This document shows, in pieces, positions 1 through 18,715 of a stretch of 24,000 nucleotides of DNA. The position numbers and the translations under genes were made by a program. Within the stretch, counting starts at the first letter, position 1. The number at the start of each line of letters is the position of its first letter. The notes under the pieces are model-generated. The model was not told the origin of the DNA, made no database searches, and worked only from the letters and a program-made list of their open reading frames with translations. The DNA is from Pseudomonadota bacterium (lineage in GTDB: Bacteria > Pseudomonadota > Alphaproteobacteria > Rhodobacterales > Rhodobacteraceae): NCBI GenBank assembly GCA_039819865.1, contig JBCBRF010000025.1, positions 4,333 through 28,332 on the forward strand, read 5' to 3'.

Positions 1-824
1 TCGGTCGTCGCAACCTCGGATTGGGCTGGCGCGCGGTCGAGGCTCGGATCGACGAAGCGGAAGGCGGGCAGGGGGCCGGTGATGCGCAAGGTCAGGCCGA
101 ACGGCTCGGCGAGCGCGGCCCAGGCGCCGCCGGCCTCGGACAGCGCCTCGACCGATCCGCGGGCGGCGAGCACCGAGAGATCCAGCGCGAGGTCGGGGCG
201 GCCCGGCGCGACCTCGACGCTGGCCCGGCCGAGCCGGGCGGCGTCGCCGCGGATCCGGTCGAGCAGCGCGCCCGTGGCGGAGCGGCGGCGATCCTCGTCC
301 TGGCGACGGTCGAGCTTGCGGCGGAGATAAGCGCGGCCGTTCGGCGCCGTGGGCCGGGAGGCGGCGGGGGACGCGGGCGGGGTCCCGGGCGGGCTCCCGG
401 GCGGGGTCCCGGGCGGGGTCCCGGGCTGGGTCGAGATCAGGAGACGGATCTGGTACTCGGCGGCGCCGCGGATCCGGAGGAAAGCGGCTTTCAGCGCGTC
501 GGCGCGGTCCGGGTCGCCCGCGAGCCCGGCGGCGGTCTCCTCCGGCGTGCGGGTCGCGGCGCCGAAGCGCAGCGGCAGGACGTCGATGACCGCGGCCAGA
601 CGGCAGAGCGCGTCATGATGCGCCTTGGCGAGCCGGCCCGCCTGGTCGGGGTCCTCGCCGATCGGCCCCGCGGCGGGGTCGCTCTCGGTCAACCCCGCCG
701 GCGCGGTGGCGAGCAGCGCCAGACCGCCCGCGGGCGCGAGCGCGACCGGGTCGCCGCCCGTGAGCGCGGCGCGAGCGCGGTCGGCGTCGCGGGGATCGAT
801 CAGGCCGTGCGGCATCCAGAGCAT
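1..824 (-). CDS. GvpL/GvpF-family gas vesicle protein, truncated by the left window edge. It is absent from the ORF track because it has no stop codon in the window.
   Basis: Manual minus-strand translation from ATG at 824-822, with GGAGA about 10 nt upstream: MLWMPHGLIDPRD...VIDVLPLRFGAATRT...AEYQIRLLISTQ(PGTP)x4...NGRAYLRRKLD...LTLRITGPLPAFRFV. The frame stays open to position 1. The VLPxRFG, AEYxI, GRAYL and TGPxPxxxF motifs are typical of the GvpF/L family. Third codon positions are strongly GC. Confidence 0.8.
   Translation of the reverse strand, partial: MLWMPHGLIDPRDADRARAALTGGDPVALAPAGGLALLATAPAGLTESDPAAGPIGEDPDQAGRLAKAHHDALCRLAAVIDVLPLRFGAATRTPEETAAGLAGDPDRADALKAAFLRIRGAAEYQIRLLISTQPGTPPGTPPGSPPGTPPASPAASRPTAPNGRAYLRRKLDRRQDEDRRRSATGALLDRIRGDAARLGRASVEVAPGRPDLALDLSVLAARGSVEALSEAGGAWAALAEPFGLTLRITGPLPAFRFVDPSLDRAPAQSEVATT
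374..433. repeat. 12-bp tandem repeat (CGGGCGGGGTCC) x5, the last copy degenerate. It encodes a (PGTP)n linker inside the truncated GvpF/L gene.
   Basis: Read directly: copies at 374-385, 386-397, 398-409, 410-421 and 422-433. Minus-strand translation is PGTPPGTPPGSPPGTPPASP. Confidence 0.9.
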
Positions 825-870: not shown

Positions 871-1902
871 TCAGGCGGCGCCGGCGATGGGTTGGTCGGC
901 GTCGCTCTTGGCGGCGTCGCCCTCACGGCGGAGGACGGCGAGGATCGGCGGCGCGTCGGCGGACGCGCCGGCGGAGACGAGCGCCTGGCGGGCCTCGGCG
1001 ACGCGGCGGAGCAGCGTCTGCGCTTCGCCGAGCGTCCGGGTCAAGGCGGCCGAGGCCGCGCCCGCGACATCCGGATGAGCGCGCTTCACCGCGGCGCGGT
1101 AGGCCGCGCGCACCGCATCCACGCCCTCCGACGCGCGGACGCCCAGGGTCTGCTCGGCGGCGGAGACGGCGGCCGGGTCGGGACGGTCGAAGGCGATGCT
1201 GGCGAAGGAGCTGGCGGGCGCCGGGCCGATCATGCGGATCGCGAGCGCGCCCTCCCACTCCGCGTCGAAGCCCTCGAGCGCGGCCTCGAGCGCGGCGTCG
1301 CCGCCGCGACCGGTCAGCGCGACCACGTTCAGGATGGTCTCATCGTCGCCCTCCGGCAGACGGGCGAGGTCGACGGCGGCGGGCGCGAGGTCGAGCGCGT
1401 AGCGCGCCGCGAGGCGGGCGCGCTCGGCCTCGGAGGCCTCCTGCAGGATCCGCCCGGCGCCCGCGCGGTCGCCATCGGAGGCCGCCGCTCGCGCCGCGCC
1501 CCAAGCGGGATAGCGGGAGAGGCGCTGCAGCATCGCCTTCACCGGCGCTTTGATCAGGAGCTGGTGCTGCTCGAGATCGCCGTATTCGGACAGGCCCTCG
1601 GACAGCATCGAAGCGTTTGCGGCGAGGAAGCCCTGGAGCGCGCCGAAATCGGCCAGATCCGCGCCCGGCGCGGCCGGCAGGAGCGGCGCGACGGCGTGGG
1701 CGGCCTCGAGCGCGGCCTGGGTCTCGACCAAGGCTTTGCCGATCGCCTTGCGGGTCCGCCAGAAGCCGCCCTTGGCGGTCGGCAGGGCGAGCGCGGCGAG
1801 GCCGCGGGCGACCGCGATGTGGGCGTCGGAGCGCTCCAGCGCGGCCGAGGCCGCCACAGCGTCGGTTTCCGCCGTCACCGCCAGAAGGGTCAGGGCCGTC
1901 AT
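871..1902 (-). CDS. GvpL/GvpF-family gas vesicle protein with a C-terminal J-domain-like extension (HPD motif)
   Basis: 343-aa ORF. Residues 1-240 have the GvpF/L layout (HQLLIKAP strand, ALAIRMIGPAPASSFASI = GPxPxxxF C-terminal motif). Residues about 247-305 read AEQTLGVRASEGVDAVRAAYRAAVKRAHPDVAG..LTRTLGEAQTLL, which matches the J-domain pattern LGV..x..I..AYR.....HPD......eA...L. The HPD codons are at 1069-1077. The ATG at 1902 overlaps the upstream TGA (ATGA at 1899-1902), and GAGGAG lies upstream. Confidence 0.85.
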   Translation of the reverse strand: MTALTLLAVTAETDAVAASAALERSDAHIAVARGLAALALPTAKGGFWRTRKAIGKALVETQAALEAAHAVAPLLPAAPGADLADFGALQGFLAANASMLSEGLSEYGDLEQHQLLIKAPVKAMLQRLSRYPAWGAARAAASDGDRAGAGRILQEASEAERARLAARYALDLAPAAVDLARLPEGDDETILNVVALTGRGGDAALEAALEGFDAEWEGALAIRMIGPAPASSFASIAFDRPDPAAVSAAEQTLGVRASEGVDAVRAAYRAAVKRAHPDVAGAASAALTRTLGEAQTLLRRVAEARQALVSAGASADAPPILAVLRREGDAAKSDADQPIAGAA

Positions 1903-4187
1903 ATCGATCTCCTCACACCTGAATCGCGCGCGTTAGGATCGCGCACGTTAGAATCGCGGACGGTTGGGTCGCGCGCCTCGACCGCCTCGCGTCCGGCGCC
2001 CATGGACATCCGCTCGAGCGGGCGGGCCGCCGCCGGCGCGCGCCCGGAAGCCGTCCGGCTCGCCGACAGCTCGGCCGCGGCCGCGTCGAAATCATCCGGG
2101 ACCGCCCTCGGCGGGGCGTCCGCATTCGCCCCGGCCTCGATCCAACGCCGGATCGCGCTCCGTCCGGCGATCTCGCACAGCGCCTTCAGGTCCGCGCCGA
2201 CCCACCCTTCGAGGCTTTCGGCGACGCGGTCGAGCGCGACGTCGTCGGCGCGCGGCAGATCGGCGGCGTGGATCGCCAGGATCTCGGCCCGCGCGGCGGC
2301 GTCGGGCGCGCCGATCTCGAGCGTCAGGTCGAAGCGGCCCGGGCGCAGCAGCGCCGGGTCCACCGCGCTCGGGCGGTTGGTGGCGGCCAGAAGCGTCACG
2401 CCGCGCAGTTCGTCCACGCCGTCGATCTCCGTCAACAATTGCGCCGTCACCCGGCCGATCGCGCCATGGTCCGACTCGCCTCGGACGGGAGCCAGCGCGT
2501 CGATCTCGTCGAAAAAGAGGATGCACGGCGCCGAGGCTCGGGCTTTGCGGAACAGCTCGCGGACGCCGCGCTCGGCGTCGCCCAGGAAACGGGAGAGCAG
2601 CTCCGCGCCGCGGACGGGGATGAAGTTCACGCCGGCCTCGTGGGCGAGGGCGCGGGCGAGATGGGTCTTGCCGGTTCCGGGCGGCCCCGCGAGCAGAACG
2701 CCCTTGGCGGGCTTGAGGCCGATGGCGCGGTAGGCGGCCTCGTGACGGAGCGGCCAGATCACGGCCTCGACGAGCGCGCGCTTGGCCTCGGCGGCGCCGC
2801 CGACGTCGGACCAGCGCGTCTCGGGCGTCTCGATCGCGACCTCGCGGAGCGCGGACGGGCCGACGGTTTTGAGCGCGGCGTCGAAGTCTTCGGGTTCGAC
2901 GGCGACGTTGTCGGGTGCGGCGTCTTCGCCCAGACGGCGGAGCGCGGCGAGGCCGGCTTCGCGGGCGAGCGCGGCGAGATCGGCGCCGACATAGCCATGG
3001 GCCGCGGCGGCGACCGCGTCGATCTCGACGCGGTCGGACAGCGGCATGCGCTCGGCGTGGACGCGCAGGATCGCGGCGCGGCCGGCGCGGTCGGGCGGCG
3101 AGAAGGCGATCTCACGATCGAAGCGGCCCGGGCGGCGGAGCGCGGGGTCGAGCGCGTCGGGCAGGTTGGTCGCCGCCATCACGATCACCCGGCCGCGGGC
3201 GGAGAGGCCGTCCATCAGGCCGAGGAGCTGGGCGACGACGCGGCGCTCGAGCTGGCGATCCTCGGCCATGTTGGCGCGCTTCGGCGCGATGGCGTCGATC
3301 TCGTCGATGAAGATGACGCTCGGCGCCTTGGCTTCGGCGGATTTGAACAGCTCGCGGAGCCGGCTTTCGCTGTCGCCGTAGTGCTTCGAGACGATCTCGG
3401 GGCCGGTGAGCTGGAAGAAGGCGGCTTCGGTCTCCTCGGCGACGGCGCGGGCGAGCAGGGTTTTGCCGCAGCCGGGCGGGCCGGAGAACAGCACGCCCTT
3501 CGGCGCGTCGACGCCGAGGCGCTGGAACAGGTCGGGCCGGCGGAGCGGCAGCTCGACCATCTCGCGGACCTGGGCGAGTTCGCGGTCGAGGCCGGCGATC
3601 CCGGCGTAGCCGCGGGATCCGGGGCGGGCCTTGGCGGCGGTCGGGTCGGCGCGCAGGCCGAGCCGGGTGGCCGCCGTCACCAGGAGCGGGCCCTCGGGCG
3701 CGGCTTCGGCGATGATCGCCTCGATCGTGACGCCGCCGAGCAGGCGGATGCGGACCCGATCGCCGAGGGCGGCGGGGGTGTCCTCCATCGCGTTCCTGAT
3801 CCGGCCGGCGAGGGCCTCGGTGGCGCGCGGCGCGCCGGCGGAAAGGCTCAGGACCAGGGTCTCGGCGGGTCGGGCGGAGGCGGTCGCGACCGCGACGGGC
3901 TCGCCGAGGCCGACGCCGGCGTTGGCGCGCTGGATCTCGTCGAGCAAGATGATCGAGGCGCCGCGGCTTTGGGCGTGGGCGGGCAGCGCGCGGGCGTAGG
4001 TGGCGCGGTCGGCGCCGACGCCCGAGAGCTTGAGCAGATCGCCCGCGCGGGCGCCGAGGCGCGCCAGGTCGGCCGGGTCGAGCCGGGCCACGGCCCGATC
4101 GGCGTCGCCCGGGGCGGCGCCCGCGGCGATCAACGTGACGGCGCCCGCGGAAGCGGCGGCGCCCGGCTCGGCCCGGACGTCCGACAT
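1899..4187 (-). CDS. CDC48/VAT-type double AAA+ ATPase (N domain + D1 + D2)
   Basis: 762-aa ORF. The N-terminal double-psi-barrel-like region reads GDLLKLSG...ILLDEIQRANAGVGLGEPV. D1 has Walker A GPPGCGKT, pore loop SKHYGDSE and Walker B VIFIDEIDA. D2 has Walker A GPPGTGKT, pore loop SRFLGDAE and Walker B ILFFDEIDA. Both domains have RRPGRFD/LRPGRFD arginine-finger regions. The C-terminal tail has RDxxV repeats and no HbYX motif. Confidence 0.92.
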   Translation of the reverse strand: MSDVRAEPGAAASAGAVTLIAAGAAPGDADRAVARLDPADLARLGARAGDLLKLSGVGADRATYARALPAHAQSRGASIILLDEIQRANAGVGLGEPVAVATASARPAETLVLSLSAGAPRATEALAGRIRNAMEDTPAALGDRVRIRLLGGVTIEAIIAEAAPEGPLLVTAATRLGLRADPTAAKARPGSRGYAGIAGLDRELAQVREMVELPLRRPDLFQRLGVDAPKGVLFSGPPGCGKTLLARAVAEETEAAFFQLTGPEIVSKHYGDSESRLRELFKSAEAKAPSVIFIDEIDAIAPKRANMAEDRQLERRVVAQLLGLMDGLSARGRVIVMAATNLPDALDPALRRPGRFDREIAFSPPDRAGRAAILRVHAERMPLSDRVEIDAVAAAAHGYVGADLAALAREAGLAALRRLGEDAAPDNVAVEPEDFDAALKTVGPSALREVAIETPETRWSDVGGAAEAKRALVEAVIWPLRHEAAYRAIGLKPAKGVLLAGPPGTGKTHLARALAHEAGVNFIPVRGAELLSRFLGDAERGVRELFRKARASAPCILFFDEIDALAPVRGESDHGAIGRVTAQLLTEIDGVDELRGVTLLAATNRPSAVDPALLRPGRFDLTLEIGAPDAAARAEILAIHAADLPRADDVALDRVAESLEGWVGADLKALCEIAGRSAIRRWIEAGANADAPPRAVPDDFDAAAAELSASRTASGRAPAAARPLERMSMGAGREAVEARDPTVRDSNVRDPNARDSGVRRSI
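1921..1980. repeat. 15-bp tandem repeat x4 in the 3' end of the AAA+ gene, encoding an (RDxxV/A)x4 tail
   Basis: Copies are gaatcgcgcgcgtta (1921-1935), ggatcgcgcacgtta (1936-1950), gaatcgcggacggtt (1951-1965) and gggtcgcgcgcctcg (1966-1980). Minus-strand translation is RDPTVRDSNVRDPNARDSGV. Confidence 0.85.
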
Positions 4188-4507: not shown

Positions 4508-4756
4508 TCAGCCGGCGCGGCCCTGCCTCTGGATGTCGCGGAGCCGGGTGAGGAGCTTCAGCTCCGCCTCCTCATATTCCTCCTCCGAGATCTCGCCGGC
4601 GTCGAGCATTTGCTCGAGGACCAGGATCTGACGCTTGATCTCGGCGGGGTCGTTCATCTGCTCGAGCGCGTGGTCGTGGATCTTCCGTCCGATCCACAGC
4701 GCGGTGTGGAGCGGGGCCGTGATCGGCAGGGTCAGAAGCGTTGAGAGCAGGCCCAT
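4508..4756 (-). CDS. gvpG: Gas vesicle protein GvpG
   Basis: 82 aa: MGLLSTLLTLPITAPLHTALWIGRKIHDHALEQMNDPAEIKRQILVLEQMLDAGEISEEEYEEAELKLLTRL. It has the hydrophobic N-terminus plus the GEISEEEYEE helix characteristic of GvpG. GAAGGAG SD upstream. Confidence 0.9.
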   Translation of the reverse strand: MGLLSTLLTLPITAPLHTALWIGRKIHDHALEQMNDPAEIKRQILVLEQMLDAGEISEEEYEEAELKLLTRLRDIQRQGRAG

Positions 4757-4782: not shown

Positions 4783-5637
4783 TCAGCCCGCGAGGGCGGC
4801 GGGCTCGACCGCGTTGGGGGCGGCCCAGGCGAGCTGGAGCGAGACGAAGCTGTAGGCCGGGCCTGGCCCGACGATCTTCACCGTCAGGCGCCCCGGCGCC
4901 TCGGCCTCGACGGCCTCGAGCGCGGCGACGAGATCGGCCTGGGCGACGCGGTCGAGCAGGGCGTCGGCCTTCAGGACCATCATCTCATCCTCCGGCGCGC
5001 CGAAGGCGAGCGAGCGGGTCAGCGGTTCGAGGCGCTCGATCAGGCGGTGGCGCTCCTCGGTGCGCTTGGTCTCGAGCGCGGCGTCGACCTTCCGGCCGAG
5101 CTCGATGCGCTGGTAATGGGTCTCGGTCGCGGAGCGGGCGGCGAGGGCCTTGTAGGCGCTTTGCAGCTCGGGCCGGGCGGCCACGACCTCGCGCATCGCG
5201 GTCTCGCGGTCCCAGGAGACCTTGATCCCGCACTCGACGGCGCCGGCCAAATCGTCGAGGGCGGCCAACAGGGGATCCTCGTTGGCGGCGATGGTGGCGC
5301 GGATGCGGTCGACCTCCGCCGTGATCAGGCCGAAGCGCATCGGCAGAACGTCGGCGCGGGCCATCAGGGTCTCGAGCGCCTTGGCGTGGCCGAGCATGTT
5401 GCGCCGCGTGGAGAGCACCTCGTCGACGTCGATCGGGCTCGCGATGACGGTGAGCGGGCCGCACGCGACCAGAAAGGGCTCGTCGCCGGGGGCGGAGACC
5501 GGCTTGAACGCCAGATCGAGATCGGCGCCGGCGCGGGCGACGGCGTAGATGTAGACGTTGCCCTCCGCGCCGGGTTCGACGGCCTGGACGGCGGGCGGGG
5601 TCGCGGTGTCGGTCTCGATCTCGGTATTGGCGGTCAT
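4783..5637 (-). CDS. gvpF: Gas vesicle protein GvpF (GvpL/GvpF family)
   Basis: 284 aa: VYIYAVARA..., VLPMRFGLI, ECGIKVSWD, RLTVKIVGPGPAYSFV. These are canonical GvpF/L motifs. Sits immediately upstream of gvpG. Confidence 0.92.
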   Translation of the reverse strand: MTANTEIETDTATPPAVQAVEPGAEGNVYIYAVARAGADLDLAFKPVSAPGDEPFLVACGPLTVIASPIDVDEVLSTRRNMLGHAKALETLMARADVLPMRFGLITAEVDRIRATIAANEDPLLAALDDLAGAVECGIKVSWDRETAMREVVAARPELQSAYKALAARSATETHYQRIELGRKVDAALETKRTEERHRLIERLEPLTRSLAFGAPEDEMMVLKADALLDRVAQADLVAALEAVEAEAPGRLTVKIVGPGPAYSFVSLQLAWAAPNAVEPAALAG

Positions 5638-5645
5638 CGGCGGCC

Positions 5646-6341
5646 TCAGAAGCGTTGATCGTAGGCGGGCGGCCGCTGCGCGTCGGCGCGGCGCGGGATG
5701 CGGATCTCGAGGATGCCGTTGATCAGGCGGGTCTCCGCCCGCTCGCGGACGGCGTCCTCGTCGATGTCGGCGGGCAGCCGCGCCTCGCCGCGGAACTTGC
5801 GCGCGCCGGCGGTCTCGATCGCGAGCATCGGGCCCTCGGCGCGGAGCACGACGTCGTCCGGCGCGACGCCCGGCAGTTCGACCACGGCGACCCAGGCGTC
5901 CGCCTCGTCATAGACGTCGAGGACGGCTTCGCGCACGCGCTCCGGCGCGGGGCCCTGCGCGACGCTTTCGCCGCGGTCCTTCAATTCAAAATCGTTCGCT
6001 CCGGAGGCGTCGTCCTGGTCGGGGCGGATCGGACGGGCGCGCACGCCCCAGGAGGCGGTCACGCCGCCTTTCGCCACCGCGTCGCCGTCGCGGGCGCGTT
6101 TCTCCAACTCGCCGGCCAGGGTGTGGAGCGCGCCCGCGAGGCCGCCCGCCACGCCTTGCGCGGCGGTCTGCACGCTGTCGAACAACCCGCTCAGGCGCTG
6201 GCCGATTTCGTCGACGGCGGCCTGGCCCGTCAGGGTGTCGGCGCCCGAGCCGCCGGCGCCGGACGTCTCCGCGCCCGCGCTCGACCCGGCCGTTTTGTCG
6301 GCGTCGGAGGCGTCCGTTTGGTCGTCACGCGTATCGGTCAT
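5646..6341 (-). CDS. Hsp20/alpha-crystallin-domain protein (GvpH-like) with a disordered Gly/Ala/Asp-rich N-terminus
   Basis: 231 aa. The C-terminal portion VLDVYDEADAWVAVVELPGVAPDDVVLRAEGPMLAIE...RLINGILEIRIPRR fits the alpha-crystallin domain pattern (LPGV...NGVLEI.iP). AAGGAGAG SD upstream. Confidence 0.85.
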   Translation of the reverse strand: MTDTRDDQTDASDADKTAGSSAGAETSGAGGSGADTLTGQAAVDEIGQRLSGLFDSVQTAAQGVAGGLAGALHTLAGELEKRARDGDAVAKGGVTASWGVRARPIRPDQDDASGANDFELKDRGESVAQGPAPERVREAVLDVYDEADAWVAVVELPGVAPDDVVLRAEGPMLAIETAGARKFRGEARLPADIDEDAVRERAETRLINGILEIRIPRRADAQRPPAYDQRF

Positions 6342-6357: not shown

Positions 6358-6765
6358 TCAGACGCCGAGCTGCTGCAGGCGCTTTTCGAGGATCGCGAGG
6401 CGGCCGCGCAGCTCGCGGTTCTCCTGGGTCAGAACGGCGAGGCGGGCAGGGTCGACGGTCTCGATCGGCGCCGCGATCGGCGGGGCCGGCGGCTCCAGCC
6501 GCGGCGCGCCTTCGGCGCTTTCGAGCGACCCGTGGTGGAAGCCGGCGCCGCCGGTCAGCGAGGGATCGTGGGCCCACCAGTCGATGCCCATCTCGATCGC
6601 CTTATCGACCGTGGTGATCAGCAGCCGGAGCTTGACGCTCAGCAGCTCGATGCCGACCAGCGAGACCGTGACGTCGCCCGCGATCACGACGCCCTTGTCG
6701 AGCACCCGCTCGAGCACGTCGGCCAGGCTGTCGCTGTGGATCGGGCTGTGGATGGCGTGGGACAT
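6358..6765 (-). CDS. gvpJ: Gas vesicle protein GvpJ (GvpA/J/M family)
   Basis: 135 aa: SLADVLERVLDKGVVIAGDVTVSLVGIELLSVKLRLLITTVDKAIEMG is the GvpA/J core. The longer C-terminal extension is typical of GvpJ rather than GvpA. Confidence 0.9.
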   Translation of the reverse strand: MSHAIHSPIHSDSLADVLERVLDKGVVIAGDVTVSLVGIELLSVKLRLLITTVDKAIEMGIDWWAHDPSLTGGAGFHHGSLESAEGAPRLEPPAPPIAAPIETVDPARLAVLTQENRELRGRLAILEKRLQQLGV

Positions 6766-6789
6766 TGGGTCCTCTCACGCCGGCGCGGG

Positions 6790-7047
6790 TCAGGCGACGG
6801 CGTCGTTCTCGAAACGGGAATGCTTGCGCAGACGCCGGTAGCCGGTCAGGCCGCCCTCTGCGTCCAGCTCGTACTGGTAGGTGGTCAGCAGGTCGTCGTC
6901 GCCGAGGCGGGCCTTGCTCTCGAGCACGTCGACCTCGACGATCCAGCCGTCCTCGCGCTTTTCGCACCGAACGATGCTGTCGAAGGCCTGGCCGGTCATC
7001 TCGTCGGAGAGCTCGCGGGCGAGGCGGGTGACGTCGCGCAGATTCAT
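6790..7047 (-). CDS. gvpO: Gas vesicle protein GvpO
   Basis: 85 aa: ...EMTGQAFDSIVRCEKREDGWIVEVDVLESKARLGDDDLLTTYQYELDAEGGLTGYRRLRKHSR. This matches the GvpO pattern (DGW.v.vEv.E..R.p...D.l..Y.v.lD..G.l..YrR). Confidence 0.85.
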   Translation of the reverse strand: MNLRDVTRLARELSDEMTGQAFDSIVRCEKREDGWIVEVDVLESKARLGDDDLLTTYQYELDAEGGLTGYRRLRKHSRFENDAVA

Positions 7048-7062
7048 CGGATGGTCCTTTCG

Positions 7063-7314
7063 TCAGGAGCTGTGCGCCGCGCGGTCGTCAGCCGCCTGGA
7101 GCATCTGGTTGAGAAGCCGCACGCGGGCGGCGAGCACGTCGAGCTGGCGCTCCGCCTTCAGACGGCGCTGGTTGATCATGCCGAGGTCGCGCTCGATGCG
7201 GTCGCGCTCGTATTCGAGGCGGACCAGTTCCGCGGCGATCTCGGGCCGGGTCCGAGGCTTTCGCCGCGCGAGCGAGCTCGGACGGGTCGGCACATGGGGC
7301 ATGGTGCGCTTCAT
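7063..7314 (-). CDS. Small basic coiled-coil protein, possibly GvpV-like, translationally coupled to gvpN
   Basis: The track ORF 7063..7626 overlaps gvpN out of frame. The plausible start is the ATG at 7314-7312, which forms ATGA with the gvpN stop (7313-7311). Product is 83 aa: MKRTMPHVPTRPSSLARRKPRTRPEIAAELVRLEYERDRIERDLGMINQRRLKAERQLDVLAARVRLLNQML. A short basic N-terminus plus heptad coiled coil after gvpN resembles my recollection of GvpV, but this was not verified. Confidence 0.6.
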   Translation of the reverse strand: MKRTMPHVPTRPSSLARRKPRTRPEIAAELVRLEYERDRIERDLGMINQRRLKAERQLDVLAARVRLLNQMLQAADDRAAHSS

Positions 7315-8309
7315 GCGGCTTTCTCCGTCGGCGGCGCCGGGCAATGCTCGCGGATCGCGGCGCGCAGGCGCTCGAAGAACTTGCTGCGGGCGTCGGCGAC
7401 CGAGGCGACGTCGTCGCGATCGGAGGGCGCGCGGGACTCGAGCGCGTCGAAGCAGAGCTGGACGAAACGCTCGTCGGCGCAGTTCGGGCGCAGGCCCTGG
7501 TCGGCGGCGATGCGGGCGATCAGGATGGCGGTGCGCATCGAGGGCGGGGCGGCGCGGCCCATCAGGACGCCGTCGGCCTGCGCAGCGGCGCGGAGCGCGC
7601 GGACCAGCATCACGATCGGCCGGCAATGCTCGGGCGCGAGGCGGGAGCGGGCGGCGACGACGCCGAGCTCCGTTTCCGCGTCGAAGTACGAGAGATCGAA
7701 GGTGATCATCCGGTCGAGGAGCGCGTCCTGCGGCGCCTTGACCGCGGCGTATTCGGCCGGGTTCGAGGTGAAGATCGCGCGGAACTCGGGATGCGCCTCG
7801 ATCACCCGGCGCTCGCGGCCCGGGGTCGAGAGGACGAGCACGCCCTCTTCGAGCGCAGCGAGCAGCGGGTTGTTGGCTTCGGGCGGGGAGCGGGTGAACT
7901 CGTCATAGACGAGCGTGTAGCCCTCCTCCATCGCGACCGTGAGCGCACGGTCCTCCCAAAGCTTGGAGGTCGCGCTCTCGGTCTTCGTCACGTTGTGGAT
8001 GAAGCGGTCGTGGACCCGCTTGGTGCGCTCGCCCACCGCCTCGCCCACGAGATTGGCCCCGGTGAACCAGCCGTCGCCGGCGATCGTTACGGTGGGTCGA
8101 TCCAGAGCGGCCGCGAGCTGCATCGCGAGGGTCGTCTTGCCGGCGCCCGCGGGACCGCGGAAATGCACGGCGACCCCGGCGCGCAGATAGGCCAGCGCCC
8201 GGCTCTCGATCGAAGCGATCGCGGCGTCGCGGAACAGATCCGCACGGGGCTTCAGCCAGCGCGCATCGGCGCGGAGGCCTTCGGCTTGCGGCTTTTCGGC
8301 GGCGCTCAT
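7311..8309 (-). CDS. gvpN: Gas vesicle protein GvpN (AAA+/MoxR-like ATPase)
   Basis: 332 aa. Walker A is FRGPAGAGKTTLA and Walker B is TLVYDEFTRS. Also NPLLAALEEGVL, FRAIFTSNP and ALLDRM, which is the typical GvpN signature. Confidence 0.93.
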   Translation of the reverse strand: MSAAEKPQAEGLRADARWLKPRADLFRDAAIASIESRALAYLRAGVAVHFRGPAGAGKTTLAMQLAAALDRPTVTIAGDGWFTGANLVGEAVGERTKRVHDRFIHNVTKTESATSKLWEDRALTVAMEEGYTLVYDEFTRSPPEANNPLLAALEEGVLVLSTPGRERRVIEAHPEFRAIFTSNPAEYAAVKAPQDALLDRMITFDLSYFDAETELGVVAARSRLAPEHCRPIVMLVRALRAAAQADGVLMGRAAPPSMRTAILIARIAADQGLRPNCADERFVQLCFDALESRAPSDRDDVASVADARSKFFERLRAAIREHCPAPPTEKAA

Positions 8310-8456
8310 GGGTTCGAAGCCTCTTCGCTCTCGGTCGGTGCGGCGCGAGGACGCGCCTTCTCGCCATAAGCGTTAACGAGCGAGGCTTTCCCAAGTGTAA
8401 ACGCCCGGGAGGAAGATTTGGAATTTGGTGGGGATTGGGGCGCGCGCGCCGCGGCG

Positions 8457-8948
8457 TCAGGGCGCGGCGATATCGAACAGCCGCGCAAGGGCGGTCCGAT
8501 AGTCGTCCACCATGCCGAGCGCCTCGTCGAGATAGGCCTCCCAGCGCGCTTCGAGATCGGCGTCGGGGTTCGAGGGCTCGGCGATTGCGAGCGGCGTCGG
8601 GTCGTGGGCGGCGAGGGCGGCGCGGACGGCGTCCGCCGTCTCGGCGACGAAGGCCGCGTCGCAGCGGCGCAGGGCGCCCTCGCCCATCGGGCGACGGCCT
8701 CGCACGGCGGCGGCGATGCGTCGGTCGCTGGTCAGGATCAGATCCAGCTCATGCCAGAACGGCGCGTCGCGCCCGTCGCGGGTGTCGGCGGCGGCGACGA
8801 CGACGCCCTCGACACGGAGCGGCCGGAGGCCGTGGCGCGGCAGGAGCAGGGTGCGAAAAGGATCGCTCGGCGACGCCGTCTCGTCGCACGGTCCGCCCCG
8901 AACCGGGACGTGGTCCGGCGCGACGAGGATCTGCACGGAGAAGCTCAC
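8457..8948 (-). CDS. Hypothetical protein (about 163 aa) between the HhH-tail protein and gvpN
   Basis: The 5' part of track ORF 8457..9143 overlaps the upstream gene. A GTG at 8948-8946 lies 5 nt after the upstream stop (8954-8956), with AAAGG upstream. Product: VSFSVQILVAPDHVPVRGGPCDE...APFWHELDLILTSDRRIAAAV...LEARWEAYLDEALGMVDDYRTALARLFDIAAP. High GC3. No family recognised. Confidence 0.55.
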   Translation of the reverse strand: MSFSVQILVAPDHVPVRGGPCDETASPSDPFRTLLLPRHGLRPLRVEGVVVAAADTRDGRDAPFWHELDLILTSDRRIAAAVRGRRPMGEGALRRCDAAFVAETADAVRAALAAHDPTPLAIAEPSNPDADLEARWEAYLDEALGMVDDYRTALARLFDIAAP

Positions 8949-8953
8949 GACGC

Positions 8954-9865
8954 TCAGCCTTTCTTGGCGCTCGCGTCCGCGCTTTTGGCGGAGCCGGCGC
9001 CCTTGTCGGCGGATTGGGCGAAGGCGATCCAGCCTTCGAGATCGAGCAGCGCGCCGATTTCGCCGAGCTTTTCGCGGAGCGTCGCGGCGTCGGCGGCGGC
9101 GAGTTCTTCGAGGTTGGCGACGCCCGCCTCGCTCAGCATCCATTCGAGGCCCGGACCGGCGCCCGGCAGGCCGGCGAGGTCCACGACGACCTGGGGCTTC
9201 GCGGCGCGGCGCGCGCGGGGCTTTTTCGGCGCGACGCGCTTTGGCGTGGCGGGTTTCGAGGCGGCGGGTTTGGAGGCGACCTGCTCGGGCTCGGCGGGCT
9301 TCGTGGCGACGCGCTTCGCGCGGGCCGGCTTTTCCACGGTGGCGTCGACCGCGGCCTCGGCCGGCTTGGCGGCGGCGCGCTTGCGGCGGCGCGGCGGCGC
9401 CGTCGTCTCGGCTTGCGCCTCGGATTGAGCGTTGGCCGCGTCCGCCTTGGCTTTGGCGCTTGCGGCGCGGGAACGGCGCTTTGCGGGCGCCCGACGCTGG
9501 GCGGCCGGCTCCGGAGCGGGCTCGGCCTCCGGAGCGGCATCCTGCGCAGGCTCAGCAAGGTTGTCGACGGCTTCGTCCACCGAGGCGTCCGTCTCCGGCG
9601 CGGTTCCGGCGGCCTCTTCCGCGAAAGCGCGGGCCGCGGCGGACGCGGACAGCGTCTCCTCCATCGCGCGACCGACGGTCTCAACAGCGGCGGTCGCGGT
9701 CTCGAACGCCGTCTCGACCAGATCGGCGGCGGCCTCGACGCCCGCATCCACGGCCGCGCCGCCGCGGCCCGGTCGGCGACGCGCCGCCCTCAGCTCCGCC
9801 AGCTTGGCGCGCGCTTCGCGGCGAACCTCTTGGACGCGAGACTTGTAAGAGGGGGCGTTGCTCAT
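8954..9865 (-). CDS. Ala/Pro/Lys/Glu-rich low-complexity protein with a C-terminal helix-hairpin-helix-like domain, immediately downstream of gvpA
   Basis: 303 aa. The N-terminal basic helix is MSNAPSYKSRVQEVRREARAKLAELRAARRR. The central part has KPA-type short repeats (AAKPAEAAV..ATKPAEPEQVASKPAASKPATPKRVAPKKP). The C-terminus VVDLAGLPGAGPGLEWMLSEAGVANLEELAAADAATL resembles the GIGPxLExxLxxxGI HhH module common in alphaproteobacteria. Codon usage is consistent with coding. Confidence 0.7.
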   Translation of the reverse strand: MSNAPSYKSRVQEVRREARAKLAELRAARRRPGRGGAAVDAGVEAAADLVETAFETATAAVETVGRAMEETLSASAAARAFAEEAAGTAPETDASVDEAVDNLAEPAQDAAPEAEPAPEPAAQRRAPAKRRSRAASAKAKADAANAQSEAQAETTAPPRRRKRAAAKPAEAAVDATVEKPARAKRVATKPAEPEQVASKPAASKPATPKRVAPKKPRARRAAKPQVVVDLAGLPGAGPGLEWMLSEAGVANLEELAAADAATLREKLGEIGALLDLEGWIAFAQSADKGAGSAKSADASAKKG

Positions 9866-9908
9866 GGCGTCGGACCGCTCGTAAATAAAAAACCCACAAA
9901 CGAATGCG

Positions 9909-10441: not shown

Positions 10442-12103
10442 ATGGGCCTGTCCCTCGCATCCCTCATCGACGAAACGACGCCCGAGACGGCGTCGCCGGC
10501 CCTCCTCGAGGATGGGTTAGGGCTGTCCGCCGCCGATACGGTGGCGCGGGGCGCGCGCATCATCGCCATCGGACCCGCGGCCTGGGAGCGGATCCGCGCG
10601 GCGCAGGCGCGGCTGGCGCGGGCGATCGCGGAACGGCGCGTCGTCTATGGCGTGACGACCGGTTTCGGGCCGCTCGCCGATCGGCTGGTGCGGCCCGAGG
10701 ATGTCGAGACGCTGCAGCGGAACCTAATCTACCACCTCGCCACCGGCGTCGGAGCGCCGCTGTCCTGGGAAGCGGCGCGCGCCACCGCGCTGGCGCGGCT
10801 CTGCTCCATCGCGCAGGGCTGGTCGGGGGCTTCGGACCCGATGGTCGAGGCCCTGGTCGCGCTGTTGAACTCCGACCTCGCGCCCTGGATCCCGGAGAAG
10901 GGCACGGTCGGGGCGAGCGGCGATCTGACGCCGCTCTCTCATCTTGCGCTGGCGCTTATGGGCGAGGGCGCGTTCATCGATCGCGCCGGGAACCGGATCG
11001 AGGGCGGCGCCGGGCTCGCGCGGATCGGCGTTCCGCCGTTGACGCTCGCCGCGCGCGACGGGCTCGCGCTGGTGAACGGCACGGCGGCGATGACCGGGAT
11101 CGCGGTGCTGAACGGCGCGCGCGCGGCGGCGCTGCTGGAGTGGGCCGAAGCGCTGACCGGCCTGCATGCGGAGCTCTTGCGCGGGCGCTCAGAGGCTTGG
11201 GACCCGGCGCTCTCGGCGGCGCGGCCGCATCCTGGGCAGGTCGCGGCGTCCGATCGGCTGCGCGCGCGGATCGAGGGCGCGCCTCGGATCGACGCGACGC
11301 GGGCGGCCGAGCGGATTCTGCCGCAAAGCGGCGACGCTCCGCCGCAAGACGCCACGCCGCTTCAAGACCCCTATTCGATCCGCTGCGCGCCGCAGATCCT
11401 CGGCGCCGCGCGGGACGCGCTCTCGTGGCATGACGCGGTGATCGAGCGGGAACTGAACAGCGCGTCGGACAATCCGATCTTCGCCGAGGACGCGGCGATC
11501 GCAGTCCATGGCGGCAACTTCATGGGGTGCCATGCGGCGCTGGCGTCGGACGCGCTCAAGAATGCGGTCGTGCTGACGGCGGTGCTTTCGGAGCGCCAGA
11601 TCGCGCGACTGACGGACGAGAAGCGCAATGGCGGGCTGCCGCCCTTCCTCAATCGCGGGCGCGTCGGGCTGGAGAGCGGCCTGATGGGCGCGCAGGTGAC
11701 GGCCAGCGCCCTGGTCGCGGAAATGCGGGCCTTCGGCGGGCCGGCCTCGACGCAGTCGATCTCGACCAACGGCGCGAACCAAGACGTCGTCAGCCTCGGC
11801 ACGATCGCGGCGCGCGGCTGCGCGGACATCCTCGAGGACGCGGCCCGCGTGCTGGCGATCCAGGCCATCGCCGTCGCGCAGGGCGCCGATATCGTCGGGC
11901 GCGAGGCGCTGTCGCCCGCCGGCGGCGCGCTCGCCGAGCGCATCCGAAGCGTCGTGGCCCCTTTGACGTCCGATCGTCCACTCCACGCGGACATTGAGCG
12001 GCTTTCACAGGAAATTGTAGAACAAACCGCCGGACAAGACTGCGAATTCTACAAAAATCCGACCCACGCCAGCCTAGGGAAGAATTCACACCAGGCTCGA
12101 TGA
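10442..12103 (+). CDS. tal: Tyrosine ammonia-lyase (aromatic amino acid lyase, MIO-dependent)
   Basis: 553 aa. The Ala-Ser-Gly MIO triad in GTVGASGDLTPLSHLA is at 10913-10921. Also VYGVTTGFGPLA, QDPYSIRC and NGANQDVVS. The selectivity-switch position reads NLIYHLATG (His98 at 10733-10735). This is the His-Leu state associated with tyrosine rather than phenylalanine specificity in Rhodobacter TAL. Sits next to pyp. Confidence 0.9.
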   Translation: MGLSLASLIDETTPETASPALLEDGLGLSAADTVARGARIIAIGPAAWERIRAAQARLARAIAERRVVYGVTTGFGPLADRLVRPEDVETLQRNLIYHLATGVGAPLSWEAARATALARLCSIAQGWSGASDPMVEALVALLNSDLAPWIPEKGTVGASGDLTPLSHLALALMGEGAFIDRAGNRIEGGAGLARIGVPPLTLAARDGLALVNGTAAMTGIAVLNGARAAALLEWAEALTGLHAELLRGRSEAWDPALSAARPHPGQVAASDRLRARIEGAPRIDATRAAERILPQSGDAPPQDATPLQDPYSIRCAPQILGAARDALSWHDAVIERELNSASDNPIFAEDAAIAVHGGNFMGCHAALASDALKNAVVLTAVLSERQIARLTDEKRNGGLPPFLNRGRVGLESGLMGAQVTASALVAEMRAFGGPASTQSISTNGANQDVVSLGTIAARGCADILEDAARVLAIQAIAVAQGADIVGREALSPAGGALAERIRSVVAPLTSDRPLHADIERLSQEIVEQTAGQDCEFYKNPTHASLGKNSHQAR

Positions 12104-12259
12104 CAAAACTTTCGAAAAAGCCGCCTCTTGGTAACCGCTTGTTTGGGCCTTTGGCCGATCTTGGGCGGAGCCGCAGCGAGACTTCGCGCCATTTGGGCAA
12201 AGACCCGCTGATGCATAGGTATTCGCCAGAATTACCAACAAAAGGAGCTTCGATCTGAG

Positions 12260-12655
12260 ATGGACGAACTCGGAACTTTGAAGAAGCACGCCGGACGCTA
12301 CGAGTTTTCCTTTCCGGAGCTCGAGCTGTGCGTGCGCGGCCCCTACGCCGAGTGGGTGCTGCAGGCGGCCGCCGAAATCATGGCCAAAGCGGAAAAGCTG
12401 CGCAGCGAAGGCCATCTCGACGAGCTCGAGATGCTGAAGGAGTTCGGCGAGGCCTCCGAGGTCGACGTCGACGCCGCGCAATTCGAGGCGAACGCCCGCT
12501 TCGAAGCGCTGCCGCAATGCGTCGTGTCGCTTGGAAGCCTCGACTACCGCTGGGTCGCCGGCGGCCAAGAAGACGACGCGGCGCCGATGACGCGCATCGT
12601 CGACATGTCCCTCACCCGCAACGACACCTTCCTCCGCGACGAACCGCAGGCCTGA
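12260..12655 (+). CDS. Hypothetical acidic protein (131 aa) immediately upstream of pyp
   Basis: MDELGTLKKHAGRYEFSFPELELCVRGPYAEWVLQAAAEIMAKAEKLRSEGHLDELEMLKEF...RIVDMSLTRNDTFLRDEPQA. Third-position GC is consistent with coding. AAGGAG lies about 12 nt upstream. The opposite-strand ORF 12086..13018 is a shadow frame. No family recognised. Confidence 0.65.
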   Translation: MDELGTLKKHAGRYEFSFPELELCVRGPYAEWVLQAAAEIMAKAEKLRSEGHLDELEMLKEFGEASEVDVDAAQFEANARFEALPQCVVSLGSLDYRWVAGGQEDDAAPMTRIVDMSLTRNDTFLRDEPQA

Positions 12656-12697
12656 GCGCCGCACGTCCGAAGCCATCAAAAGACGGAGATCTGAACC

Positions 12698-13072
12698 ATG
12701 GAAATCATCCCGTTCGGCGCCAACGACATCGACAACATCCTGCAGCGTGAGCCCCACCGGGCCGAGGCGCTGCCGTTCGGCGCGATCCTGCTGAGCCGTC
12801 AGGGCAAGATCCTGAAGTACAACGCCGCCGAGGGCCTGATCGCCGGCCGCAGCGCCGGCGACGTCATGGGCAAGGACTTCTTCAACCAGATCGCCCCGTG
12901 CGCCAAAGGCAAGCGGTTCCACGGCGAGTTCTTGAAGTTCGCCCAGACCGGCCAGGTCAACACGATGTTCGACTACACCTTCGAGTACAAGATGAAGCCG
13001 GTGAAGGTGCGGATCCACATGAAGTCGAACGCTGGCGGTGAGAACTGCTGGCTGTTCATCAAGCGCGCCTAA
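12698..13072 (+). CDS. pyp: Photoactive yellow protein (PAS-fold xanthopsin)
   Basis: 124 aa: MEIIPFGANDIDNIL...LPFGAILLSRQGKILKYNAAEGLIAGRS...FFNQIAPCAKGKRFHGEF...NTMFDYTFEYKM.PVKVRIHMK...WLFIKRA. It aligns along its whole length with Halorhodospira PYP. The chromophore Cys (Cys68, TGC at 12899-12901), Tyr41, Glu45 and Arg51 are conserved. The Thr50 equivalent is Ala. GGAGA SD 8 nt upstream. Confidence 0.97.
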   Translation: MEIIPFGANDIDNILQREPHRAEALPFGAILLSRQGKILKYNAAEGLIAGRSAGDVMGKDFFNQIAPCAKGKRFHGEFLKFAQTGQVNTMFDYTFEYKMKPVKVRIHMKSNAGGENCWLFIKRA

Positions 13073-13154
13073 GGTCGCCGAGAGCGCGTCGGCTCGGCCG
13101 GCGCGCCCTCAGCCCCTCCCAAGGCTCCGGCCACCGTCCGTCAAGGAGGATCCC

Positions 13155-13667: not shown

Positions 13668-13669
13668 GC

Positions 13670-18624: not shown

Positions 18625-18715
18625 CAAAAGGCCGCCCGCCACGCGCCGGATTGGCGCGCCGCCTGCAAGACGCTACCGCTGACGTCTGCAGCGCGCCCTG
18701 GCGGAGAGGCCGAAC

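What the first reader, a model, noticed from the sequence alone, without database searches (positions are those of the whole stretch)
988..1164. J-domain (HPD) fused to the C-terminus of a GvpF/L gas-vesicle assembly protein
After the GvpF/L core ends (IGPAPASSFASIAFDRP), the ORF continues with AEQTLGVRASEGVDAVRAAYRAAVKRAHPDVAG...LTRTLGEAQTLLRRV. This reproduces the helix I / helix II / HPD loop / helix III pattern of DnaJ J-domains, with HPD encoded at 1069-1077. A J-domain would recruit and activate DnaK/Hsp70 at wherever this GvpF/L protein binds, which for GvpF/L is thought to be the nascent vesicle or GvpA. I do not know of a described Hsp70 co-chaperone dedicated to gas-vesicle biogenesis.
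Basis: partly seen in the sequence, partly recalled or inferred. Interest (0 to 1): 0.8.

Follow-up and report, generated by a model that had tools for sequence, protein, structure and literature searches.

The report
J-domain built into gas-vesicle GvpF/L protein
A gas-vesicle assembly protein in this gene cluster carries a genuine but divergent J-domain, the module that switches on Hsp70/DnaK chaperones. This suggests that some bacteria hand their sticky gas-vesicle shell proteins to the cell's general chaperone, a link annotation pipelines have flagged but no paper I could find has described.

Summary
The ORF at 871-1902 (minus strand, 343 aa) has a GvpL/GvpF core (Pfam 4.7e-15; the model matches GvpF crystal structures) followed by a J-domain-like segment, with HPD at 1069-1077.

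On its own this copy scores below Pfam's DnaJ cut-off (17-21 bits against 27.8). Family evidence settles the homology:
- HPD is invariant in the 7 close homologues.
- A profile of the tail hits almost only J-domain structures in the PDB (best E 7.6e-6).
- The AlphaFold model of the tail retrieves J domains as its top 28 Foldseek hits.
- All 150 best representatives from an exhaustive search carry the tail; 118 of 153 proteins examined have HPD, and 103 of 150 hit Pfam DnaJ (best 4e-14).

The fusion is old and widespread. It occurs in cultured Octadecabacter arcticus and Rubrimonas cliftonensis, and IMG and NCBI already label some members "GvpL/GvpF/DnaJ domain". I found no paper describing it.

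The most likely function, inferred and untested, is a client-specific class C J-protein that recruits DnaK to gas-vesicle shell proteins.

Two further features turned up: a conserved strand and an Ala-Ala C-terminus after the J-domain, and a Cdc48-type AAA ATPase gene overlapping the start of this gene.

The parts
871..1902 (-). Complete gene for the GvpF/L-J fusion protein (343 aa; ATG at 1902, stop at 871-873)
   Evidence: ORF list. GC3 is 0.92-0.93 throughout. The identical protein is in NCBI as 'MAG: GvpL/GvpF family gas vesicle protein [Pseudomonadota bacterium]'.
1180..1902 (-). GvpL/GvpF core, residues 1-241
   Evidence: Pfam PF06386 E 4.7e-15, residues 15-234. The AF2 model (pLDDT 83.5) matches the GvpF crystal structures 6l5d and 4qsg by Foldseek, E 1.6e-8 to 1.3e-7.
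973..1176 (-). J-domain-like segment, residues 243-310. Helix I is 243-253, helix II is 261-274, then the HPD loop, and helix III is a long helix 277-310. No separate helix IV is seen.
   Evidence: AF2 secondary structure. Pfam DnaJ scores 17.3 and 20.6 bits. Tail profile against PDB, best E 7.6e-6, J domains only among the best hits. Foldseek on the tail model gives J domains as the top 28 hits, probability 0.8-0.98.
1069..1077 (-). HPD tripeptide (His276-Pro277-Asp278)
   Evidence: Invariant in the 7 close homologues. H, P and D are present in 128-129 of 150 aligned family representatives. An exact HPD occurs in the tail of 118 of 153.
1081..1122 (-). Helix II with a basic face (R265, Y268, R269, K273, R274). 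It aligns with E. coli DnaJ R22, Y25, K26, M30 and K31.
   Evidence: Family column counts: position 265 is R or K in 101 of 150, position 268 is Y or F in 121 of 150, position 269 is R, H or K in 112 of 150, position 273 is R or K in 108 of 150. The DnaJ residue numbering is from my own knowledge.
916..948 (-). Conserved post-J motif PxLAxLRREGD (residues 319-329), predicted to be a beta-strand
   Evidence: L321, A322, R326, E327 and G328 are invariant in close homologues. R326 is present in 117 of 150 across the family. The strand is 321-326 in the full-length model and is also a strand in the tail-only model, alongside the last core strand.
874..879 (-). C-terminal Ala-Ala
   Evidence: 79 of 153 family members end in -AA and 105 of 153 end in A, against about 5 expected to end in -AA from an Ala frequency of 0.18.
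1899..4187 (-). Cdc48-family double-AAA ATPase gene. Its stop overlaps the start of the J-fusion gene by 4 bp (1899-1902).
   Evidence: Pfam CDC48_N plus two AAA domains. NCBIfam TIGR01243 CDC48, 729 bits. The same adjacency is seen in L002, L005, L006, L007 and L008.
3..824 (-). Next gene downstream: another GvpL/GvpF paralogue, which runs off the window start
   Evidence: Pfam PF06386 E 1.9e-22. Translation.
4508..4756 (-). gvpG
   Evidence: Pfam GvpG E 5.5e-22.
4783..5637 (-). Canonical gvpF paralogue without a J-domain
   Evidence: Pfam PF06386 E 5.3e-51.
5646..6341 (-). Hsp20 / GvpH-like small heat-shock protein gene
   Evidence: Pfam HSP20 E 3.3e-5. NCBIfam Hsp20 E 2.5e-14. The L002 orthologue also gives a weak GvpH hit.
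6358..6774 (-). GvpA/J-type shell-protein homologue (138 aa)
   Evidence: Pfam Gas_vesicle E 9.5e-18.
6790..7062 (-). gvpO
   Evidence: Pfam GvpO E 5.9e-18.
7311..8309 (-). gvpN
   Evidence: NCBIfam TIGR02640 gas_vesic_GvpN, 293 bits, above its cut-off of 266.8.

Best explanation
The gene encodes a fourth class of GvpF/L paralogue with a real, divergent J-domain inserted after the GvpF fold. The J-domain consists of helix I, a basic helix II, the HPD loop and helix III. It is tied back to the core by a conserved C-terminal strand.

The protein most likely acts as a client-specific class C J-domain protein, in three inferred steps:
1. The GvpF/L core docks onto GvpA/GvpJ-type shell proteins or onto the accessory Gvp complex.
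2. The HPD face triggers ATP hydrolysis in the host's DnaK.
3. DnaK then clamps the hydrophobic shell protein, keeps it soluble, and releases it for insertion into the growing vesicle.

What is shown here: the domain identities, their conservation, the age and spread of the fusion, and the gene context. What is inferred: the binding partner of the core, taken from published GvpF and GvpL work; contact with DnaK; and any effect on vesicle formation.
For: GvpF/L core:
- Pfam E 4.7e-15.
- The model matches GvpF crystal structures at E 1.6e-8.

J-domain:
- All 5 first homologues hit Pfam DnaJ, best E 6.8e-6.
- The tail profile against the PDB returns J-domain proteins as its 28 best hits, best E 7.6e-6, aligned through helix III.
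- Foldseek on the tail model returns J domains as its top 28 hits, probability up to 0.98 and TM up to 0.71 on the target. J domains also appear for the tail in the full-length search, probability 0.99.
- HPD is invariant in 7 homologues of 43-72% identity.

Family:
- An exhaustive HMMER search found 115 representatives at E <= 1e-30. All 150 best are 244-455 aa apart from two fragments (mostly 320-370 aa), and nearly all of them align into the tail.
- 118 of 153 have HPD in the tail.
- 103 of 150 hit Pfam DnaJ at E <= 0.01, best 4e-14.
- The family consensus reads LG[VL]..A....[IVL][RK]xA[YF]R...[RK]..HPD...A[Y]..LL, which is the J-domain signature including the basic helix II.
- The Octadecabacter arcticus member passes Pfam's DnaJ cut-off, 28.0 against 27.8 bits.

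Other support:
- In a tree of cores alone, the J-bearing proteins form one clade separate from the three other paralogues, which points to an old fusion that has been retained.
- dN/dS of the tail is 0.54, below 1.
- Published work gives GvpF as the binder of GvpA and GvpL as the hub of accessory Gvps (PMC7688916), and proposes GvpF as a chaperone of GvpA2 (PMC11445434).
Against: - This copy alone is below Pfam's DnaJ threshold (17.3 and 20.6 bits against 27.8), and NCBIfam gives it no hit.
- No helix IV is seen. Helix III runs on as one long helix.
- Foldseek E-values for the tail are weak, 0.16 and above.
- The tail evolves faster than the core, dN/dS 0.54 against 0.27.
- 35 of 153 family members have lost HPD but keep the tail, so the tail also has a role that does not need HPD.
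- No Hsp70 gene is present in the window or in the related clusters I read.
- Nothing about DnaK stimulation, client binding or phenotype was tested or could be tested here.
Confidence: 0.62

Rival explanations
1. The segment is descended from a J-domain but no longer works with Hsp70. It would serve as a helical arm for something else, for example contact with the Cdc48-type AAA ATPase encoded immediately upstream, with GvpN, or with another Gvp protein. Alternatively it could simply position the conserved C-terminal strand and Ala-Ala end.
For: - The DnaJ score is below threshold and helix IV is missing.
- 35 of 153 family members keep the tail without HPD.
- The AAA gene overlaps this gene's start by 4 bp in the window and L008 and lies directly upstream in four more related loci, which suggests the two proteins work together.
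- The post-J strand and the Ala-Ala end are conserved independently of HPD.
Against: - HPD is invariant among the close homologues and present in about 85% of aligned family members.
- The basic residues of helix II that face Hsp70 in canonical J domains are also conserved. A mere spacer would not be expected to keep them.
- The Octadecabacter arcticus cluster has the J-fusion but no Cdc48-type gene, so the AAA ATPase cannot be the universal partner.
- To my knowledge no J-domain is known to act on a Cdc48-type ATPase.
Confidence: 0.22
2. The J-domain and the C-terminal Ala-Ala together form a turnover or recycling device. The protein would bind shell protein or mis-assembled material, recruit DnaK, and then itself be pulled off or degraded by an AAA+ machine (ClpXP/ClpAP, or the cluster's Cdc48-type ATPase) that recognises the ssrA-like -AA end. 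The role would be quality control or disassembly rather than assembly.
For: - The Ala-Ala end is strongly enriched: 79 of 153 against about 5 expected.
- The cluster also encodes an Hsp20/GvpH-like protein and a Cdc48-family unfoldase, which together with a J-protein resemble an sHsp-Hsp70-AAA+ disaggregation set.
- That ClpX and ClpA read the C-terminal -LAA of the ssrA tag is from my own knowledge.
Against: - No test of degradation was possible.
- Several members with HPD, and with or without the AAA gene, do not end in -AA: O. arcticus ends -SAG and P0003 ends -AAG.
- Ala-rich proteomes inflate such endings somewhat.
- The idea is compatible with the best explanation and adds to it. It is not a strict alternative.
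Confidence: 0.12
3. The match is a chance resemblance in an alanine- and arginine-rich helical tail, or an assembly or annotation artefact that joined two genes.
For: The protein is very Ala-rich from a 70% GC genome, and its own DnaJ score is only 17-21 bits.
Against: - The profile hits to J domains are specific.
- The same architecture is found in 150 or more independent sequence clusters from many assemblies, and in finished genomes of cultured bacteria.
- The reading frame is continuous with uniform GC3.
Confidence: 0.02

Closest known systems
J domain of DnaJ/CbpA (Pfam PF00226; e.g. PDB 3lz8, 2kqx, 3ucs, 4j7z)
   Same: It shares helix I, a basic helix II, the HPD loop and helix III with the LGV...AYR...K..HPD...A..LL signature. 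These are the best sequence-profile and fold matches.
   Different: There is no separate helix IV. The domain lies near the C-terminus rather than at the N-terminus. There is no G/F region, zinc finger or DnaJ C-terminal domains. This copy scores below Pfam's threshold.
HscB/Hsc20 (class C J-protein of Fe-S cluster assembly)
   Same: The design is the same: a J-domain joined to a domain that binds one dedicated client, which is handed to an Hsp70. PMC10410713 lists it as a class C example. This is a similarity in how it would work, not in sequence.
   Different: HscB has an N-terminal J-domain, a different client domain and a dedicated Hsp70 (HscA) encoded next to it. Here no Hsp70 gene is nearby, and the client domain is a GvpF fold.
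Auxilin / DjlA (class C J-proteins with a C-terminal J-domain)
   Same: The J-domain sits at the C-terminal end of a targeting module. Auxilin brings Hsc70 to a protein lattice (clathrin), as named in PMC10410713. That is the nearest analogy to bringing DnaK to a gas-vesicle shell. DjlA gave a weak NCBIfam hit for the O. arcticus member.
   Different: The targeting domains are unrelated. Auxilin drives disassembly of a coat, whereas assembly is the expected role here, and the direction is untested.
GvpF (PDB 4qsg Microcystis, 6l5d Anabaena) and GvpL of model gvp clusters
   Same: The two-domain GvpF fold and the Pfam family are the same, and the gene sits in a gvp cluster beside gvpG, gvpN, gvpO, gvpK and gvpA/J-type genes.
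   Different: The model GvpF and GvpL proteins end after the core. This paralogue class adds about 100 residues: the J-domain, a strand and an Ala-Ala end. Its cores form their own clade apart from the three ordinary paralogues in the same clusters.

Membership tests
J-domain (PF00226; J-domain proteins) | HPD tripeptide in the loop between helix II and helix III | tested here: met
   H276-P277-D278 lie between the predicted helices 261-274 and 277-310. They are invariant in 7 homologues and present in 128-129 of 150 family representatives.
J-domain (PF00226; J-domain proteins) | Significant match to the curated J-domain profile (Pfam gathering score 27.8 bits) | tested here: inconclusive
   The window protein scores 17.3 bits, and 20.6 bits for the tail alone, so it does not pass. 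Relatives do: O. arcticus scores 28.0 bits, L002 scores 26.8, and the best family E-value is 4e-14 with 103 of 150 members matching. The tail profile against PDB J domains gives E 7.6e-6.
J-domain (PF00226; J-domain proteins) | Four-helix fold with an antiparallel helix II / helix III hairpin | tested here: inconclusive
J-domain (PF00226; J-domain proteins) | Positively charged helix II that faces Hsp70 | tested here: met
   R265, R269, K273 and R274 are basic in the window protein. Family columns are R or K in 101-108 of 150.
J-domain (PF00226; J-domain proteins) | HPD-dependent stimulation of Hsp70 ATPase | not testable with these tools
   This needs biochemistry with the cognate DnaK.
Class C (type III) J-domain protein | A J-domain without the G/F region, zinc-finger-like region or DnaJ C-terminal domains, joined to some other targeting domain | tested here: met
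   Pfam finds only GvpL_GvpF and DnaJ. The class definition is from PMC10410713.
GvpL/GvpF family (PF06386) | Match to the family profile above the curated cut-off | tested here: met
   56.7 bits against a cut-off of 23.6, E 4.7e-15, residues 15-234.
GvpL/GvpF family (PF06386) | GvpF two-domain alpha+beta fold | tested here: met
   Foldseek against 6l5d_B gives E 1.6e-8 with TM 0.63 on the target, and against 4qsg gives E 1.3e-7.
GvpL/GvpF family (PF06386) | Encoded within a gas-vesicle gene cluster | tested here: met
   gvpN, gvpO, a gvpA/J-type gene, gvpF and gvpG lie upstream and another gvpL/F lies downstream. The syntenic L005 continues with a gvpJ-type gene, gvpF/L, gvpK and a 70-aa gvpA.
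GvpL/GvpF family (PF06386) | Required for, or participating in, gas-vesicle formation | not testable with these tools
   This needs genetics. Octadecabacter, which has the fusion, is described as forming gas vesicles (PMC3646047).

The most novel reading that the evidence does not exclude
Some proteobacterial gas-vesicle clusters may encode their own proteostasis module with three parts:
- a GvpH/Hsp20-like holdase;
- a GvpF/L-J adaptor that plugs the shell-protein pathway into the host DnaK;
- a Cdc48-type AAA+ unfoldase translationally coupled to the adaptor.

The adaptor's conserved Ala-Ala C-terminus would act as the handle by which an AAA+ machine strips or recycles it. If so, gas-vesicle assembly or quality control in these organisms would depend on Hsp70.
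Probability: 0.2. Interest if true: 0.75.

Novelty: new variant of a known kind. Interest (0 to 1): 0.55.

Why it matters
How the very hydrophobic, aggregation-prone GvpA is kept soluble and fed into a growing gas vesicle is an open question. GvpF has only been proposed to act as a "chaperone", on the basis of interaction screens (PMC11445434, PMC7688916).

A conserved J-domain on a GvpF/L paralogue gives a concrete, testable mechanism: hand-over to Hsp70, probed with an HPD point mutant. It would be the first link between gas-vesicle biogenesis and the general chaperone network.

It is also practical. Heterologous gas-vesicle expression for ultrasound reporters causes proteotoxic stress and depends on the host (PMC12848028). 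A J-bearing assembly factor, or DnaK supply, may be a lever. Octadecabacter arcticus offers a cultured, gas-vacuolate organism in which to test it.

The claim should be tempered. The architecture is one of thousands of class C J-protein architectures, and it is already visible in automated annotations.

Tried and rejected
- The word-indexed protein search found only 5, 7 and 9 relatives, even with a 150-sequence profile. The exhaustive representative search was needed to see the true size of the family.
- The genome-contig scan used one narrow peptide pattern and returned only 3 loci: two uncultured Neomegalonema MAGs and one Pseudomonadota MAG. It says little about taxonomic spread.
- tblastn of the window protein and of P0019 against plasmids found nothing. 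Only the more canonical member P0148 found the Octadecabacter plasmid.
- The window protein's own contig was found only as a 2.8-kb Logan copy, so I could not extend beyond the window start. The syntenic L005 was used instead.
- Seven literature searches combined gas vesicle or gvp terms with J domain, J-domain, DnaJ, DnaK, Hsp70 or Cdc48 (and a text search of the large J-protein survey PMC10410713). None found a description of the fusion. Subscription-only papers are not covered, including Kyndt et al. 2004 on the R. capsulatus pyp/gvp locus.
- I considered a dedicated Hsp70 in the cluster. None is present in the window, L005, L006, L007 or the O. arcticus cluster. The long unknown ORFs downstream of gvpK in L006 and L007 have no Hsp70 match.
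- I considered that the AAA ATPase is the obligatory partner of the J-like domain and rejected it as universal, because O. arcticus lacks that gene.
Full report
**What is in the sequence**

The finding lies inside a single ORF, window 871..1902 on the minus strand (343 aa, ATG start). The quoted peptides are all there. IGPAPASSFASIAFDRP is residues 225-241. AEQTLGV... starts at residue 249. HPD is residues 276-278, encoded at 1077..1069. The span 988-1164 corresponds to residues 247-305. Third-position GC is 0.92 in the core and 0.93 in the tail, so the tail is coding in the same frame as the core. The window is 70% GC.

**Domain tests on this protein alone**

Pfam gives GvpL_GvpF at residues 15-234 (E 4.7e-15, 56.7 bits; cut-off 23.6). 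It gives DnaJ PF00226 at residues 252-284, covering profile positions 5-38 of 63. The DnaJ score is 17.3 bits for the whole protein and 20.6 bits for the tail alone, both below the curated cut-off of 27.8. A single-sequence search of the tail against PDB sequences put CbpA and DnaJ J domains on top, but only at E about 0.1. Taken alone, the J-domain call is suggestive and not significant.

**Family evidence**

The word-indexed search found a handful of homologues of 43-72% identity. One is named "J domain-containing protein" by NCBI, and some carry a precomputed PF00226 hit. In their alignment HPD is invariant. So are L253, V264, A267, A294, L297 and R300, which are the J-domain core positions. 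All five first homologues hit Pfam DnaJ, best E 6.8e-6.

A profile of the five tails searched against every PDB sequence returned J-domain proteins as its 28 best hits. The best were DnaJ 3lz8 at E 7.6e-6 and CbpA at 1e-5. The alignment runs from helix I through HPD into helix III.

An exhaustive HMMER search of 1.84 billion cluster representatives with the full-length profile found 1378 proteins at E <= 1e-3 and 115 at E <= 1e-30. All 150 best are 244-455 aa apart from two fragments of 130 and 198 aa (most are 320-370 aa), and nearly all of them align into the tail. Of the 153 proteins in hand, 118 have an HPD in the tail. 103 of 150 hit Pfam DnaJ at E <= 0.01, best 4e-14.

Column counts over the 150 give the consensus A...LG[VL]...A...[DE][IVL][RK]xA[YF][RH]...[RK]..HPD.......L..A[Y]..LL. 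This is the J-domain signature, including the basic helix II and the AY..L of helix III.

**Structure**

AlphaFold2 on the full-length alignment gave mean pLDDT 83.5. It predicts the GvpF-type core, then helices 243-253, 261-274 and 277-310 with HPD at the turn, then a strand at 321-326.

Foldseek against the PDB puts the GvpF crystal structures first (6l5d at E 1.6e-8, 4qsg at 1.3e-7). J domains match the tail with probability 0.99. A tail-only model (pLDDT 78) retrieves J domains as its top 28 hits, with probability 0.80-0.98 and TM on the target 0.4-0.7. E-values are only 0.16 and above, as is usual for a small helical domain.

No separate helix IV is seen. In both models the post-J strand appears together with the last strand of the core, so the J-domain is probably a loop-out anchored at both ends. 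This is inferred from the secondary-structure output; I could not inspect coordinates.

**How old and how widespread**

A neighbour-joining tree of cores only, with tails removed and no bootstrap, places all 12 sampled J-bearing proteins in one clade. That clade is apart from the three ordinary GvpF/L paralogues of the same clusters. This is a distinct fourth paralogue class arising from an old fusion.

Between the window and a 71%-identical relative (L001), dN/dS is 0.27 for the core and 0.54 for the tail. The tail is looser but still under constraint.

Named members:
- Octadecabacter arcticus 238, plasmid pOA238_160, WP_015497776.1. Pfam DnaJ scores 28.0 bits, just above the cut-off.
- Rubrimonas cliftonensis WP_093252359.1.
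- MAGs of Beijerinckiaceae, Sulfitobacter, Neomegalonema and other Alphaproteobacteria.

IMG calls some members "Gas vesicle synthesis protein GvpL/GvpF/DnaJ domain" or "DnaJ-domain-containing protein 1". Pipelines therefore see the fusion.

I found no paper that mentions it. The Octadecabacter genome paper lists only gvpLF and a chaperone GvpN (PMC3646047). The 280,000-sequence J-protein survey does not mention Gvp in its text.

**Context**

On the minus strand the cluster reads:

| Gene | Window coordinates |
|---|---|
| gvpN | 7311-8309 |
| gvpO | 6790-7062 |
| 138-aa GvpA/J-type gene | 6358-6774 |
| Hsp20/GvpH-like gene | 5646-6341 |
| gvpF | 4783-5637 |
| gvpG | 4508-4756 |
| Cdc48-family double-AAA ATPase | 1899-4187 |
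| J-fusion | 871-1902 |
| another gvpL/F, running off the window | 3-824 |

The AAA gene's stop overlaps the J-fusion's start by 4 bp (ATGA). The same AAA-then-J order recurs in L002, L005, L006, L007 and L008, with the same 4-bp overlap in L008. The O. arcticus cluster has the fusion and an hsp20 gene but no Cdc48-type gene.

The syntenic L005 shows what lies beyond the window start: gvpL/F, a GvpJ-type gene, a short gvpF/L, gvpK, two unknown genes and a 70-aa gvpA. No Hsp70 gene is present in any of these clusters.

**Mechanism**

Published split-GFP and pull-down work identifies GvpF as the partner of GvpA and GvpL as the hub for the accessory proteins (PMC7688916). An E. coli interaction screen proposes GvpF, then GvpG, as chaperones of GvpA2 (PMC11445434). 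[quoted passage not shown] Class C J-proteins use their other domains to target Hsp70 to particular clients (PMC10410713).

Putting these together, the best-supported reading is a client-specific class C J-protein. The core would bind a GvpA/J-type protein or the accessory complex, and the J-domain would load DnaK onto it. The domain identities and their conservation are shown here. The client, the DnaK contact and the phenotype are inferred.

Several points count against a fully canonical J function:
- The score is below threshold.
- Helix IV is missing.
- The tail evolves faster than the core.
- 35 of 153 members keep the tail but have replaced HPD with HSD, HTD, HGD, HED, HPE, HPA or nothing recognisable.

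**Extra features**

After the J-domain comes a conserved motif PxLAxLRR[ED]G[DE], with R326 present in 117 of 150 members. A variable linker follows, and then, in 79 of 153 proteins, a terminal Ala-Ala. About 5 would be expected from composition, and 105 of 153 end in Ala.

This recalls ssrA-type C-terminal degrons read by ClpX and ClpA (my own knowledge). Together with the cluster's Hsp20-like and Cdc48-type genes, it suggests a possible recycling or quality-control layer. None of this was tested.

**Verdict**

The function is plausible but untested.

The novelty is that this is an undescribed but database-visible variant of GvpF/L, and a new architecture among class C J-proteins. It is not a new kind of system. 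I rate interest as moderate to fairly high, because it turns the vague "GvpF is a chaperone" idea into an experiment built around an HPD point mutant, in cultured organisms.

Noticed in passing
window 10442-14839 (+): 10442-12103, 12695-13072, 13670-14839: Next to the gvp cluster, on the opposite strand, lies a complete photoactive yellow protein set. It has a tyrosine/histidine ammonia-lyase family enzyme (Pfam Lyase_aromatic 8e-151), PYP itself (NCBIfam TIGR02373, 177 bits, above its cut-off) and an AMP-binding ligase that is probably p-coumarate-CoA ligase. Two small unknown ORFs lie between them. The same arrangement is in L005. PYP beside gvp genes is already reported for Rhodobacter capsulatus SB1003 and Loktanella sp. 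SE-62 (PMC3646047, citing Kyndt 2004), which hints at light control of buoyancy.
   Followed up: partly
window 1899-4187 (-); also L002 7812-9980, L005 7771-9975, L008 586-2292: A Cdc48-family ATPase (CDC48_N plus two AAA domains; TIGR01243, 729 bits) sits inside the gvp cluster in addition to gvpN. It overlaps the J-fusion gene by 4 bp in the window and in L008, and lies directly upstream of it in the other loci. I found no paper linking Cdc48-type ATPases to bacterial gas vesicles. The gene is absent from the O. arcticus cluster.
   Followed up: partly
window 874-879 (-) and the C-termini of P0001-P0153: The fusion family has a conserved C-terminal Ala-Ala: 79 of 153 end -AA, 12 end -VA and 105 end in A, against about 5 expected to end -AA. 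It follows a variable linker and looks like an ssrA-type degron or an AAA+ handle.
   Followed up: partly
P0010, P0016, P0027, P0031, P0035 and others (35 of 153 family representatives): A minority of the family keeps the whole tail and the post-J strand but has lost HPD, carrying HSD, HTD, HGD, HED, HPE, HPA or nothing recognisable. These may be pseudo-J domains, or the J function may have been lost repeatedly.
   Followed up: partly
window 374-432 (inside the gvpL/F paralogue 3-824, minus strand): A 12-nt tandem repeat (4.9 copies, 93% matches) encodes PGTPPGTPPGSPPGTPPASP. It forms a proline-rich linker in the middle of the downstream GvpL/F paralogue.
   Followed up: no
window 1923-1974 (C-terminal end of the Cdc48-type gene, minus strand): A 15-nt tandem repeat (3.5 copies) encodes pentapeptide repeats (RDPTV RDSNV RDPNA RDSGV) at the extreme C-terminus of the AAA ATPase, just before the overlapping start of the J-fusion gene.
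   Followed up: no
L005 17527-18309: The syntenic cluster in MAG contig JBCBCG010000031 lies a few kb from a Rep3-type replication initiator gene, and the O. arcticus cluster is on a 160-kb plasmid flanked by IS elements. These gvp clusters may be plasmid-borne and mobile.
   Followed up: no
window 5646-6341 (-): The Hsp20/GvpH-like protein has its alpha-crystallin domain only in the last 90 or so residues. This follows a 130-residue Ala/Gly/Asp-rich, probably disordered, N-terminal region. Its L005 orthologue gets no Pfam hit at all.
   Followed up: no
window 8370-9900 and 15095-22019: About 1.5 kb between gvpN and the ammonia-lyase gene has long ORFs on both strands but no Pfam match. Further along the plus strand are an MCP with a NIT sensor domain (15095-17692), a DUF1287 protein, a CitMHS/TrkA_C transporter and a PAS-GGDEF diguanylate cyclase (20619-22019). 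These are sensory genes that could be related to buoyancy control, or could be unrelated.
   Followed up: no
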